Made by a program: the position numbers and the translations under genes | Assembly: GCA_051362555.1 (NCBI GenBank) | Contig: CM120642.1 | Coordinates: forward strand, 7,750,001 to 7,814,000 | Reading direction: 5' to 3' | DNA from: Lingula anatina | Lineage: Eukaryota > Animalia > Brachiopoda | DNA length: 64,000 nt | The notes under the pieces: generated by a model | The model's database searches: none | Told to the model about the DNA's origin: nothing | The model's input: the letters and a program-made list of their open reading frames with translations, nothing else | Part shown: positions 18,701-32,700 of the stretch, one piece after another | Numbering within the stretch: the stretch's first letter is position 1 | Layout of the letters: each line of letters begins with the position of its first letter

Positions 18701-19829
18701 ATATTTCAAGCCTCCTGAAATGTTCATGCCAAGACTGTCCCCAGCCTTGCCCCAAGTACCTCCTGTCATGTTTCACGGTCTTCCTAAGCCTGTCCCGGTG
18801 CACGTACTTCCTCAATCGGTAAGTTTACACGGTAAATATAGCGATGACGTCATTTCTTACTCAGTGTGGCGTCACTTCATCAGTGTGACATCACGCCCAA
18901 AACCAAACCTGTTGTCAATTTGAAATATATCTCTGAGCAGTAGTAGTAACATAGCATGAATTCACTATATAAAAATGAAAAATATCTACAAGGAAAGACT
19001 GTTTGTCACCAAAAACCCTCATATTTAATGCTTCTTTCTTTTTCTCTTTAGTCCTCAAAGTTTGAGTTGATAAATGGTGGATACGGCGTGAAGAACCCGC
19101 TGTTGACGCAGGCACAAAGTGAAATAGTTAACCAAGAATTAGGCAAACTAGGCGCACAGACAGAAGACAACAAGTTCGTCTGCCGTGTTTGTCAGAAAGT
19201 GTTCCCATTACAACGCCTCCTGAACCGCCATCTTAAGTGCCACAGTGACATCAAGCGGTACCTTTGTACGTTTTGTGGAAAAGGGTTTAACGACACTTTC
19301 GATCTGAAACGACACACACGAACGCATACGGGTAAGTGGTTTTAACCCCGAAATGCATTATGTTACATAAAGAATTATAAACCTATATCAATCGTTTCTA
19401 GTGGTGTTAGTAACGGATGGTTGTTAAGATGAAAAAGGAGATATTATACAACGTTCCTTTTTGAGTGGAAGAACTCAATAACTGGACCTGAATAATTCGT
19501 AAAGAATCACTGAACTGATTCCAATTATTTATCTTGTATTTACAGGTGTTCGCCCTTACAAGTGCAGCCACTGTGACAAAGCTTTTACACAGAGATGTTC
19601 GCTGGAGTCCCACTGCAGGAAAGTGCACGGTGTCTCGTTTGACTTTGGCTACAAGGAAAGGAGAGACAAAATGTACGTTTGCGAAGACTGTGGCCATACG
19701 ACAAGGAACCCAGAGAAGCATTATATGCATTTGAAGGAAAACCATCCGCACAGCCCCGCCCTGCTCAAATGTTACGATAAGAGGCAATTCAAATTTCAAA
19801 GTGACAAAATCCCTACACTCGTGGAGTAA
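12733..19829 (+). CDS. ovo: Ovo/shavenbaby/OVOL-family C2H2 zinc-finger transcription factor, paralogue A (424 aa)
   Basis: Exons 12733-12889, 18265-18818, 19052-19331 and 19546-19829 (1275 nt, all GT-AG, phases 1,0,1). N-terminal [25 protein letters not shown] motif; fingers with [45 protein letters not shown] and YVCEDCG; C-terminal [15 protein letters not shown]. These are all ovo hallmarks. Confidence 0.95.
14839..14888. repeat. (CT)n microsatellite in ovo-A intron 1
   Basis: Directly visible. Confidence 0.95.
16873..16920. repeat. (AAT)n microsatellite
   Basis: Directly visible. Confidence 0.95.
19147..19342 (+). repeat. Left arm of a 196-bp inverted repeat (ZF1-ZF2 coding tract shared with ovo-B)
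   Basis: Reverse complement of 31712-31907 with a single mismatch (19159 vs 31895). Confidence 0.95.
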
Positions 19830-21340
19830 GATGATAGACACTTCAGGATAAAGTGCTGCTCTTAAAAAAGTCCTGTATATCATTCAAGGCGACTTGGTCA
19901 AAGAAACACTATTCTATGTGATGTCAGATCGTTCCCACAATGCATGGACAAAATGGCGACACGTTCACAGGAAATTGTACACGCAGGCTAAGCCTGACTA
20001 TAATTCACTAATGTATTTTGTATATATTTTTATTTATTATGTAATTCACTAATTGTAAAATATCTCATCAATGCCATAAAGACCGCGTGTGTTTCCCAGC
20101 ATTTGCAATAGGTAGCTCTTAGACATATACCTTTTTTGTAGCACTGGACCGGCAATAAGTGCAATAATTTAGCAGACGATTTTCCCAACCGTGTTAATAC
20201 CCGGGTGTAGATGCGTCCGTAGTTTGTCTACTGTTTAGATAATGTAGTCTAACAAAATATTTCACTTAATAACCAGAAACCCCTTTAGATGAGATCTAGA
20301 TGTAAACTAAAAACAACAAACTTTGTCTGGACAACTACCCTGACTTATTGGTGCTTCTCTCTTATCTCTTCAATTAGGCTTTAATTTACTTATTTAATCT
20401 CTGACACATGGTGCTTATGTGGTATAGGTAGGCAAACATTAGATAAATATGCAATTTCTATAGAATACCCTTCCAAAATGAAAAATATATAAAAAGTTAG
20501 ATTTCAATATTTGTGAAAACGGTAATATTGATTGACTAGTATTGATAGAATCATAGAAGAGTAGACTAGACACAATTTCTAACAATAGGCGCTTCACTTA
20601 AAAAGTGTTACACTATGTTTTTCTACTAAGTTGGCTTCTCCGGCCATTGTGCAATATTTGAGAAATAGTGAAATATATAATGTTATCGGTCACTTCAATG
20701 CAAAATATGTCAAAATATGTAATATATTTTGTAGTAATAGTTGTATTTATAAAATGTAATATCAGAATGTTTCCCAGTCACAACTTAAGTTGAATGTCAA
20801 ACCTGTATATAAATGTAGTAATAGTACGTTTGAAAATAATTATCAAGCTTAGCCTCTCTTTGAAAATAGTTATTATCACAGAAAGCTGCTGGTGGTTAGA
20901 AGAAATGCCTTACTGATTTATTCGATCACAGCTTATCGACAAAGCTCTTTATGGCTAGGTTTAGTTTTCAAAACGATAATTTTTTTTCGATGACATAGAA
21001 TAATTTAGAAACATTACATTGCTTATAACCTGGCGAACTTGTATTAATAAACACAAAGATTACACAATCTCACCAACAGCACAGATTGATATATAAGGGT
21101 TATCTCCAATTTGCCAAACTTGAGATAGATGCATTAAATATTCGAGCTTCCCATGAATAGAATAGATGGCGTGGGTTGGACAAGATGGCTTCAATTACTA
21201 CACATCGGCCGGACGGTGCAATAATACAAGGCTTGTAGAATGCTGTAGAGCTAAACCCCTCTGCAATAAATTTTTCTGAAACATATGTTGTTGCCTTTGT
21301 TGTTTATGTATATATATTTGTGTTATTATTAATAAAGCTC
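19830..21340 (+). promoter_or_regulatory. Probable 3'UTR of ovo-A with polyadenylation signals
   Basis: AT-rich sequence after the stop; AATAAA at 21046, 21265 and 21331; several miRNA seed matches and TGTATATA Pumilio-type elements. Confidence 0.55.
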
Positions 21341-29750: not shown

Positions 29751-32700
29751 TCATACTACTCTCTCGGCAATCTGTCCTTTCGTCTCCAGCAAAGACGGAA
29801 TCCTGTCGTTACTAAATTTGAACTGTCTCTTGTCGTAACACTTCAACAGGGCCGGACTGTGAGGATGGTTTTCTTTGAGATGTTCATAGTAGGCCTCTGG
29901 GTCGGAGGTGGTGTGCCCGCAGTCCTCACAGACGTACATCTTCCCTCGCCTCTCTTTGTAGCCGTACTCGAATGTGATGCCGTGGACTTTCCTGCAGTGG
30001 GATTCTAAGGAACACCGCTGAGTGAACGCCTTGTCGCAGTGGCTGCACTTGTAGGGACGGACACCTGTATTATGTAATACAATTCAATAAGTTGTTTTTC
30101 AGTTTTTATGGAAGTAAAATAACTTAATATATTTTCATTTTACACTTATGCTTCTAATGCTTTCACTGAAACGAGCGATGGACTATCTAAGACACAAGTC
30201 CTTATGAAGCTAAAAATAATAGAAAAATTGTACTGCTTAGGGGAGTCATGAATCTGTTTCATCATGATTGAATAAATCAAAGTAAGACAATTACAAATCA
30301 GTTTTATGGATGAACATCCGCTTCCATCTCTCATTTCACCTTGGTAAGCGGCCACAGGTAACATAAAAACACAGTGCTTAAAAAATAGCGTCCCCATGCG
30401 TCCTGCCAATGGCAGTAAATTTTTAGATGTTAAAGTTCGACCACAAAATAAAGCCACCATACAGCTAATCGCTGAATCTAGAGCACAGGGAACGTTTTCA
30501 GAAGTCGATATTCGGCACCCCGGTCCGTTAACACATATCATGTATGTCATAAACGTAAAAGTACCTCTAAGATTCATGAAGCGCAAAGGCAGTTGCGGTT
30601 TGGGGAATTAGTTGTCAACATAAACGTGAATATAACGGATGTAAAGACTGCTAATACTTTGCTTAATATCTATGTGTGGTAATTTACAGTGGCATTTATG
30701 GAAAAACGTGTTGGTTAATGCGTCACACTTAATTATTTTGAGGACAACTTCTTTCCATCACATGGAATACCCAGAGATCCGCCCAACGCAACTTGTTGAA
30801 ACTGTTTTATTTTCAAACACGCCTCGATTTATATGACAATTTAACTACAAGATTAAATGCAGAAAAGAATGTCAAACTCGTAATTAACTATTAGGTTGCG
30901 TATAAGCACGGGTCGATTTGTAAACGTGTCACAAATCTAAGATAGTTCAGAAAGTCAAAAATGGTACTGTCCAGAATTCCGTCTTTGCCTAATAGGTGCA
31001 AATAGTTGAACGTTAAAAAAAAAGATCAGATTTTAAAGATGCATCAATTATAACTTGAAAACCGTGATATTTCAGGTGACATAAACATCTTATCTAATTG
31101 GCCTCACACATTTTTACATAGCACTACCACACATTATAAAGCTCGTTAAAATATAATACAATATTCACACAAAAAAACCTTTAACCCGAAACATCCATAC
31201 AAAATGCATTGACCCCCCTACCTACACGCACGCGCACGCACGCGCGCGCGCACACACACACACACACACACACACACACACACACACAGACACATAAACA
31301 ATTGCTTTAATTCGCCGGTTGAAAACTGAAGCTCTTAATATATCTTGCTAAATGAGCGCGTTAGATCTTAAAATAGCGGACTTTATATGTGCCTGGGAAT
31401 TTCAACTTGTACCCTTGAGCACCAAGGTATACCATACCAGAAATCGTTTACAGAATAACGATTCAAAAACCATTGTGGTCTGAGTTTTTCAGATTTTGAT
31501 TCACTCTCTCAACAAAGAGAGAGATACTGGTGAATTTTACTTTTTTGAACAGGTTTATAAATCGTGATTTCCTCGACGCATTTGGTTAGGGTATGACATT
31601 GCGCGAGAATAAAAGAATTGTTAAAATGCCCAAGGAAATGTATTTATTTGCAATCCTTTGCTCAAAAGTTCTATTGTTTTTTTTTTTCATATAAATTATA
31701 GTTGCAGGTGCAAACCACTTACCCGTATGCGTTCGTGTGTGTCGTTTCAGATCGAAAGTGTCGTTAAACCCTTTTCCACAAAACGTACAAAGGTACCGCT
31801 TGATGTCACTGTGGCACTTAAGATGGCGGTTCAGGAGGCGTTGTAATGGGAACACTTTCTGACAAACACGGCAGACGAACTTGTTGTCTTCTGTTTGTGC
31901 GCCTAGTAAAAAAAAATAGGACATAAAATCTTAGAAGAATAAGGGATTCTTCTTATCTTATTAAAATAGAAAAGAATTGTGGCAACTACTTTTCAACGAA
32001 AGGAACACTGATAATGGAACAAAGTATAGTCACGGACATTACACAAAATTACTTTGGTCTGACATTTGGCAGTCCACTTACACAGTGTTATGTTTAGTCT
32101 AAAACAGTAGCCGATTCTTCTTCTTCTTGTTTAATTTAATTGCACCACTACTGATTTTTCTTAAGTCAAAGAAGACAACTTTTAGTCAAAGACTCAATGT
32201 TTAATCTTACTTTCGTTTGTGAAATAGACCCTAGGTAACAACACAGCGCCTTTAAAACTTAATTTCAAGTCACGCATAATATTATAATTCATCATACCAA
32301 GTTTCCCCAGCTCCTGGCTGACTAGTTCAGCATGTGCTTGAGTCATCATAGGGTTCTTCATTCCGTAACCACCATTTACCAACTCCACTTTAGGTACCTA
32401 AAACATAAAAATTTAAATAATAATAATGTTTACGTTGTAGCTTAAAATAGATATAGCGTTGTAGGAATGAAGATGGTCAAATTGCATTCGAAGTTTAAGA
32501 TCAATCTGGAAAATGCCTTTTGTCAAAGGCTGAAAATACTGACATTGTCGGAAATGCTTACCGGAAGTGGCATAATGGGAATGTGCTTGGGAAGGGTCTC
32601 ATAAAGGGACCTGGTAGGCGCTCTGGAAACAGGCGGCTGGTGGGGGATAGGGACCTCGTGGTGTTTGTAAGTCGGCAAGGCGGGAAGTGGGCACATCGGT

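What the first reader, a model, noticed from the sequence alone, without database searches (positions are those of the whole stretch)
19147..31907. Exon-limited gene conversion: the ZF1-ZF2 tract is 195/196 identical between otherwise strongly diverged ovo paralogues
Seen: 19147-19342 equals the reverse complement of 31712-31907 except one synonymous change (CAG/CAA). The identity runs 11 nt into the intron (GTAAGTGGTTT) and then stops abruptly. By contrast, 12 of the first 20 codons of the next exon ([20 protein letters not shown], same amino acids) differ synonymously, and the upstream NGGYG segment is also diverged. Protein-level selection cannot keep third positions and intron bases identical. 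Inference: recent or recurrent intrachromosomal conversion homogenises the DNA-binding fingers while effector regions and UTRs diverge.
Basis: partly seen in the sequence, partly recalled or inferred. Interest (0 to 1): 0.85.

Follow-up and report, generated by a model that had tools for sequence, protein, structure and literature searches.

The report
Brachiopod ovo twins share one exon
Two old, neighbouring ovo zinc-finger genes of a lamp shell (Lingula) carry a nearly letter-perfect copy of the same 180-base exon while the rest of each gene has drifted far apart, most likely because one gene keeps copying that stretch onto the other, a process already described for other developmental gene pairs.

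Summary
Observation confirmed: 19147-19342 equals the reverse complement of 31712-31907 at 195 of 196 bases. The window holds two tail-to-tail, spliced ovo genes; gene B matches RefSeq Lingula anatina at 447 of 450 residues. Synonymous codons differ at 1 of 60 in the tract and 52 of 99 outside. It is not an assembly artefact: 4 of 4 conspecific-labelled DNA runs laid collapse both copies into one shared contig. Tract length varies: in one diverged animal, B differs from A at 4 sites in the 5' 37 nt while A is unchanged, which points to a recent A-to-B extension. Against: A's tract and neighbouring intron are unusually invariant between animals, so nucleotide constraint may contribute. Finger 3 is protein-identical without conversion, so conversion is not needed to keep the fingers alike. 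Same kind as Capitella Dlx; the scan noted it before in engrailed/invected and Zic1/Zic4. New instance of a known process.

The parts
12733..12889 (+). gene A exon 1, begins MPRAFLVRK (SNAG-like repressor motif; the name is recalled, no Pfam hit)
   Evidence: raw RNA reads of run X12 carry exon 1 letters in front of exon 2
18265..18818 (+). gene A exon 2, proline-rich region, weakly similar to gene B exon 2
   Evidence: covered by X12 RNA reads at depth about 2-10
19052..19331 (+). gene A exon 3: NGGYG motif, linker and fingers 1-2 in one uninterrupted exon (lacks gene B's intron)
   Evidence: DNA contigs of 4 runs cross 19151/19152 without insertion
19147..19342 (+). shared tract, copy in gene A: 5 coding nt + 180 coding nt + 11 intron nt
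19332..19545 (+). gene A intron 3 (214 nt); only 2 substitutions against run X10, against 20 in the 233-nt intron 2
   Evidence: joint 19330-19545 in 91 X12 reads of both genes
19546..19829 (+). gene A last exon, fingers 3-4; 206 of 284 nt identical to gene B, longest exact run 17 nt
19343..31711 (.). 12,369-nt spacer between the inverted copies; holds both last exons and 3' ends
29751..30064 (-). gene B last exon, fingers 3-4
   Evidence: X12 loose ends at 19333 and 19630 carry its letters
31712..31907 (-). shared tract, copy in gene B: 5 acceptor nt + whole 180-nt exon 4 (31902-31723, phase 1 at both ends) + 11 donor nt
31903..32297 (-). 395-nt phase-1 intron present in gene B only; marks the 5' edge of the tract
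   Evidence: 379 inserted letters at this place in X10; X12 RNA reads join exon 3 to the tract
32298..32397 (-). gene B exon 3 (NGGYG motif); 71 of 100 nt identical to gene A
32562..33073 (-). gene B exon 2, proline-rich region
   Evidence: agrees with RefSeq protein P0001
40149..40395 (-). gene B exon 1, begins MPRAFLVRK

Best explanation
Two old, tail-to-tail ovo genes of Lingula share one nearly identical 196-base stretch over zinc fingers 1-2, likely because repeated DNA-level gene conversion copies it between the inverted neighbours. Shown: the two spliced genes, saturated synonymous divergence outside the tract, near identity inside it including intron bases, the same collapse in read data of several runs, and a shorter tract in one diverged animal. 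Inferred: double-strand-break repair uses the paralogue 12.4 kb away as template; conversion persists only here because this is the longest stretch where both proteins are identical (so copying is harmless) and because it never fell below the similarity needed for pairing; it stops where homology breaks, at the shared intron on the 3' side and at the intron that gene A likely lost on the 5' side; the latest 5' extension likely ran from A to B. It is most likely a tolerated by-product, not a device selected to keep DNA binding equal.
For: 195/196 identity; 1 of 60 versus 52 of 99 synonymous codon differences, p = 8e-13. 5 intron bases beyond the donor hexamer are shared (p about 0.0014), so the template was genomic DNA, not cDNA. 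In X1, X4 and X8 an A contig and a B contig both end at 19189, B differs at one site in 19147-19189, and one shared contig starts at 19160; in X10 the shared contig has depth 82.8 against 36.1-36.4 (A) and 40.1-45.1 (B). In X10, A has 0 differences from the window over 19118-19216, but B matches only from 19150 and has 4 differences up to 19186; 0.83 are expected from mutation alone (p = 0.01 for 4; 0.05 if one is the old 19159 difference). X8's shared contig carries three linked synonymous changes in 22 nt (19264, 19270, 19285), so third positions here can vary. Edges coincide with introns. Three lophotrochozoan-like genomic ORFs have intron-like residues at gene B's intron position, which makes loss in A more likely than gain in B. 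No RNA structure: z = +1.8. Close precedent: Capitella Dlx (PMC3199776).
Against: Gene A's tract shows 0 changes against X10 where 4.2 synonymous changes were expected (p = 0.014), and the low-divergence zone extends over intron 3 (2/214 versus 20/233 in intron 2, p = 1e-4) and the first 91 nt of the last exon; conversion does not predict this. No site was shown to have changed in both copies of one animal: X8's three changes sit in a collapsed contig whose depth (105) is below four copies (about 154), so they are probably in about half the copies and are unphased. X1 and X8 break at the same places and may not be independent. Three of the four X10 gene-B differences were not printed by the tool, so their letters are unknown. 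No GC3 excess in the tract (0.55 versus 0.55 and 0.58). No second lingulid species was available.
Confidence: 0.85

Rival explanations
1. Nucleotide-level constraint (an exonic enhancer, splicing element or other ultraconserved element overlapping fingers 1-2) has kept both copies unchanged since the duplication, without exchange.
For: 0 changes in gene A's tract against X10 where 4.2 were expected (p = 0.014); intron 3 next to it is also nearly invariant; the 119-nt shared contig of X10 equals the window exactly.
Against: Three synonymous variants occur inside the tract in X8; gene B of X10 differs at 4 sites in the first 37 nt; run X11 (organism B) gave a 41-nt piece on the next exon but nothing on the tract at 80% likeness (weak, it is a distant organism and absence in contigs proves little); no RNA fold. 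Constraint could act together with conversion, but alone it would have to hold about 40 synonymous sites fixed while flanks saturated.
Confidence: 0.08
2. One recent conversion (or short double crossover) event rather than recurrent exchange.
For: A single 156-183-nt event explains most of the identity; the 3' edge at 19342 is the same in all runs that show it (3 of 4).
Against: Two different 5' ends (19187 in X10; 19160 in X1, X4, X8) and an interrupting patch in X8 need at least two events or extra mutations. The 3' edge is set by the intron, so it would be constant under either reading.
Confidence: 0.05
3. Assembly or polishing artefact: one copy was overwritten by reads of the other.
For: Short inverted repeats can be mis-polished (general knowledge); no raw long reads were seen here.
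Against: 4 of 4 DNA runs labelled as the same species, from 4 studies, assemble a single shared contig in the tract with paralogue-specific contigs on either side; at 80% likeness no diverged version of the tract appeared in X10; raw RNA reads of X12 join the tract to gene B's own flanking exons. One of these runs may be the source of the window.
Confidence: 0.01
4. cDNA-mediated conversion: a reverse-transcribed mRNA removed gene A's intron and homogenised the exon in the same event.
For: Gene A lacks the intron exactly at the tract's 5' edge, with a clean in-frame junction.
Against: The tract includes 11 intron bases at its 3' end and does not continue into either neighbouring exon, the opposite of what an mRNA template gives; the 5' part of the fused exon is synonymously saturated (pS 0.68), so the intron loss is old.
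Confidence: 0.01

Closest known systems
Capitella teleta Dlxa/Dlxb (McDougall et al. 2011, PMC3199776; abstract, passages and section 15 read)
   Same: [quoted passage not shown]
   Different: Homeodomain rather than C2H2 fingers; one genome only, no within-species tract variation reported in the passages read; no paralogue-specific intron at the tract edge reported.
Hexapod engrailed/invected homeobox concerted evolution (Peel, Telford and Akam 2006; not held; seen only as cited in PMC3199776)
   Same: Conversion confined to the DNA-binding region of an old linked pair.
   Different: Shown across many species by trees (recalled, not read); I could not build per-exon DNA trees here.
Long-lived mosaic concerted evolution of BMP8A/B, DDX19A/B, TUBG1/2 (Carson and Scherer 2009, PMC2720389; abstract and Discussion read)
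   Same: Two-copy pairs with homogenised segments that include intron sequence and divergent remainder; the authors call selection for homogenisation speculative.
   Different: Persistence over 100 million years was shown in many mammals; here persistence is shown only within one nominal species.
OVO/OVOL family (Kumar et al. 2012, PMC3380836; abstract listing and passages read)
   Same: C-terminal tetrad of C2H2 fingers of 23, 23, 24, 24 residues with the same spacing, on a disordered N-terminal extension; two ovo genes also in Lottia, leech, lancelet, sea urchin and sea anemone.
   Different: The passages read mention no gene conversion and no brachiopod.

Membership tests
OVO/OVOL zinc-finger transcription factors | Tetrad of C2H2 fingers, 23/23/24/24 residues, spaced 5/5/15 | tested here: met
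   Both genes against the human OVOL1 coordinates in PMC3380836
OVO/OVOL zinc-finger transcription factors | Closest named homologues are ovo/OVOL/lin-48 proteins | tested here: met
   the RefSeq label of the Lingula protein itself is 'Gfi-1b', an automatic name that the finger pattern does not support
OVO/OVOL zinc-finger transcription factors | Binds the CNGTTA-type motif (PMC11789646, search listing) | not testable with these tools
   no binding data
Interlocus gene conversion between linked paralogues | Tract of identity at synonymous and non-coding sites inside diverged flanks | tested here: met
Interlocus gene conversion between linked paralogues | Both copies real, copy number unchanged | tested here: met
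   no third copy in the window; the whole genome was not available
Interlocus gene conversion between linked paralogues | Non-reciprocal transfer (one copy changes to match an unchanged donor) | tested here: inconclusive
   A unchanged and B different in X10 over 19150-19186 (p = 0.01-0.05), but no outgroup to polarise and three letters unseen
Concerted evolution across species | Tract groups by species, flanks by paralogue; derived sites shared by both copies | not testable with these tools
   no second lingulid genome; collapsed contigs cannot be phased
Ultraconserved coding element | Tract invariant within and between species | tested here: not met
   three synonymous variants in X8 and four differences in gene B of X10; but gene A's copy is invariant against X10
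GC-biased gene conversion signature | Raised GC3 in the tract | tested here: not met
   33/60 (0.55) versus 0.55 and 0.58 outside

The most novel reading that the evidence does not exclude
The tract is a live recombination hinge in present-day Lingula populations: besides conversion tracts of segregating length, crossovers within the inverted 196-nt repeat flip the 12.4-kb spacer and swap the finger 3-4 exon and 3' UTR between the two ovo genes, so chimeric ovo genes segregate as an inversion polymorphism in a pair that may date back to early lophotrochozoans. Collapsed contigs cannot show spacer orientation; the one other gene model seen (RefSeq P0001) has the same orientation as the window.
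Probability: 0.06. Interest if true: 0.72.

Novelty: new member of a known kind. Interest (0 to 1): 0.36.

Why it matters
It is a clean case in which conversion between saturated paralogues is still active and its tract ends can be read: one end at a shared intron, the other at an intron that only one copy keeps, with the 5' end differing between animals. The pair also carries its own control: finger 3 is protein-identical but unconverted. Together these make testable whether conversion in DNA-binding domains is selected or merely tolerated, a question left open in PMC2720389. In practice, probes, primers, guides or read mapping in fingers 1-2 cannot tell the two genes apart, gene trees built on the fingers would date the duplication far too young, and gene A was not found among the database proteins searched.

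Tried and rejected
No indexed holder was on record as RNA; no conclusion drawn. X15 raw RNA gave 6 reads, none on the tract: uninformative. X11 (organism B, share 0.07) gave only short pieces: weak evidence. One search's table of other letters was cut at 19031 (40 rows shown, 67 hidden), so the tract letters of X12's raw reads were not seen; I tried to infer them from the totals by kind of change and dropped it as underdetermined. Donor direction from codon bias: GC3 of the tract does not separate A from B (p = 1.0 and 0.67; last exons 0.74 and 0.09). Tree of 30 proteins on non-tract parts (114 columns): A and B are each other's nearest rows, but no supported fork holds them, so the age of the duplication and orthology to the second bivalve ovo lineage are unresolved. 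Intron gain in B with a 5-nt target-site duplication: considered because the acceptor matches A's coding junction, set aside because three other lophotrochozoan-like ORFs show the same intron position and X10's B copy matches only the last 2 acceptor bases. Search for gene A's protein: not among the 120 listed of 323 hits, the 120 of 294 or the 120 of 160; no fetched protein of 344 shares a 6-mer with its exon 2; its exon 2 was not used as a query. PDB search: no chain named OVOL among 23 matches. RNA fold of the tract: weaker than shuffles. Literature: 9 searches, listings only, showed no report of two Lingula ovo genes or of conversion between ovo paralogues; subscription journals and supplements (for example of Lingula genome papers) were not seen. 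PMC11789646 passages gave nothing on which fingers bind DNA.
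Full report
1. The observation. The stretch 19147-19342 and the reverse complement of 31712-31907 are identical at 195 of 196 bases; the one difference is at 19159/31895 and is synonymous. Flanks on both sides are unrelated in an ungapped comparison. A sensitive whole-gene comparison finds only three homologous blocks, the tract (99.5%), the last exon (76.7%) and the NGGYG segment (76.4%), plus one weak AT-rich 54-nt match in the 3' regions. 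Saturation would give 34.6 of 60 in the tract and 57.2 of 99 outside, so the flanks are close to saturated. The longest identical run, 58 codons, was reached by 0 of 200,000 permutations.

2. Anatomy. Gene A (+ strand, exons 12733-12889, 18265-18818, 19052-19331, 19546-19829; 424 aa) and gene B (- strand, exons 40395-40149, 33073-32562, 32397-32298, 31902-31723, 30064-29751; 450 aa) face each other tail to tail; the two tract copies are 12,369 nt apart. Both have four C2H2 fingers of 23, 23, 24 and 24 residues, the OVOL pattern given in PMC3380836 (passages). Gene B matches RefSeq XP_013405634.1 of Lingula anatina at 447 of 450 residues, so the window is Lingula, a different haplotype from that record. 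Raw RNA reads of run X12 support the exon 1-2 junction of A, the exon 3-4 and 4-5 junctions of B, and the shared intron (91 reads); depth is about 2-16 on A-only coding parts and about 110 on the tract, so B is the more abundant in that sample.

3. The tract is gene B's whole exon 4 (180 nt, phase 1 at both ends) plus 5 acceptor and 11 donor bases. The 395-nt intron in front of it has no counterpart in gene A, where the same 5 bases are coding. Of 120 short ORFs listed, 108 do not continue into the finger-3 exon and read as genomic (a few simply end there); 102 were binned as running from the NGG motif to finger 2 without a break, one more does so on inspection, two start inside the linker, and three do not. 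The contiguous ones are nearly all arthropod- or nematode-like, and the search favours contiguous ORFs. The three exceptions (P0335, P0342, P0296; 85-88% identical to a nemertean protein) have intron-like residues ending just before a glycine 8 residues ahead of finger 1, the position of B's intron. One lophotrochozoan-like ORF, P0253, is contiguous like A, and shares its source set with P0335. Inference: the intron is old in lophotrochozoans and A lost it; these records are unnamed and I saw proteins, not DNA.

4. Not an artefact. One search listed 21 runs, 11 holding the stretch or part of it. I laid 7 of them. In X1, X4 and X8 an A-type and a B-type contig both end at 19189, the B-type one differs once in 19147-19189, and one shared contig begins at 19160. 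In X10 the shared contig spans 19187-19305 at depth 82.8, against 36.1-36.4 for A and 40.1-45.1 for B. The B-type contigs leave the alignment after 19342 in the 3 runs that show them. So the identity and its 3' edge are in the reads. One of these runs may be the window's source, and X1 and X8 break at the same places and may not be independent; X10 clearly is a different animal (23 synonymous changes in 204 sites of gene A outside the tract).

5. Signs that exchange is recent and repeated. In X10, gene A equals the window over 19118-19216, whereas gene B matches only from 19150 and differs at 4 sites up to 19186 (only 19186, synonymous, was printed). Mutation since the split predicts 0.83 (p = 0.01 for four, 0.05 for three); old paralogue divergence predicts about half of 12 codons. 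The simplest reading is that B kept an older 5' end in X10 and was overwritten from A in the window's lineage. X8's shared contig carries three linked synonymous changes within 22 nt, unlikely as independent mutations (p = 0.0006-0.017 for diversity 0.03-0.1) and more like an unconverted relic or a diverged haplotype. Its depth, 105, is below four copies (about 154) and below a 2:2 split at the patch alone (128), so further hidden variants are likely and nothing can be phased; this depth argument assumes that the assembler keeps one path at variant sites (my knowledge of such assemblers, not tested). X10 and X4 both break near 19305-19312, which suggests another variable site that I could not read.

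6. Results against. Gene A's tract shows no change against X10 over 37.7 synonymous sites where 4.2 were expected (p = 0.014), and the quiet zone extends over intron 3 (2 of 214 against 20 of 233 in intron 2) and the first 91 nt of the last exon. Conversion does not predict this; a regulatory element or a recently shared haplotype block could. I found no site demonstrably changed in both copies of one animal. GC3 is not raised. The tract folds worse than shuffles (z = +1.8), which argues against an RNA structure.

7. Mechanism. Most likely (0.85): repair of breaks in one copy uses the inverted paralogue as template. Shared intron bases indicate a genomic template. Tracts end where homology ends, at introns. 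That conversion survives only here is inferred from two things: the proteins are identical across it, so copying costs nothing, and once synonymous sites of a segment drift apart it stops pairing, as the last exon did (longest exact run 17 nt). Finger 3 is identical in protein but unconverted, and fingers 1-2 are 75-96% identical to the window's in 28 other animal proteins, so conversion is not needed to hold the fingers together. In three bivalves the two old ovo paralogues are only 77-81% identical in fingers 1-2; those of Mercenaria and of Mactra are listed with equal contig lengths, which suggests linkage, and PMC3380836 lists two Lottia genes whose identifiers both carry scaffold number 13. 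A linked ovo pair may therefore be old and have escaped conversion elsewhere, but the tree could not place A and B.

8. Comparison and verdict. Capitella Dlxa/b is nearly the same case: tail-to-tail, about 18 kb apart, homeobox identical up to the intron and 12 bases into it (PMC3199776). That paper cites engrailed/invected as an earlier case (the original was not held). PMC2720389 describes long-lived mosaic conversion and calls its adaptive reading speculative. The scan's own unchecked notes list similar tracts in other genomes and none for look-alikes of this stretch. Nine literature searches showed no report for ovo or Lingula. Verdict: real, gene conversion likely, a new member of a known kind; what is added is within-species variation of the tract end and an edge set by a paralogue-specific intron. 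Interest 0.36.

Noticed in passing
window 19118-19636: Gene A is nearly invariant against run X10 over 519 nt (2 substitutions), including intron 3, while 8 substitutions fall in 19637-19742 and 20 in intron 2; possible regulatory element or shared haplotype block.
   Followed up: partly
window 12733-19829: Gene A is expressed and spliced, but no matching protein appeared among those listed in three searches; RefSeq gave only gene B, under the name Gfi-1b.
   Followed up: partly
run X10 against window 18200-19900: A run with the same species label differs by about 11% at synonymous sites of gene A; a diverged population or cryptic species.
   Followed up: no
window 49732-50213, 58821-59296, 63423-63860: Three 78-84% identical copies of an exon coding about 130 residues that end in ADWIVYN; no Pfam hit for the one scanned. 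They lie in a region of degenerate tandem duplications (53656-55188 versus 59811-61375; 55977-56754 versus 61852-62569).
   Followed up: no
window 52858-53568 (-): Intronless 237-codon ORF with a weak BACK_BPM_SPOP hit below the curated cut-off; possibly a mobile-element or virus-derived gene.
   Followed up: no
window 25984-26417 and 52401-52682: Two minisatellite-like tandem arrays with strong strand skew, the first inside the spacer between the ovo genes.
   Followed up: no
window 5193-5442 versus 50767-51029; 27038-27360 versus 47178-47520: Dispersed repeats, 87% (inverted) and 77% identical, likely transposon fragments.
   Followed up: no
proteins P0005, P0015, P0184 (Mercenaria); P0011, P0172 (Mactra); P0027, P0191 (Ruditapes): These bivalves have a second, old ovo lineage (supported clade 99/100); Mercenaria also has a younger duplicate of the first.
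   Followed up: partly
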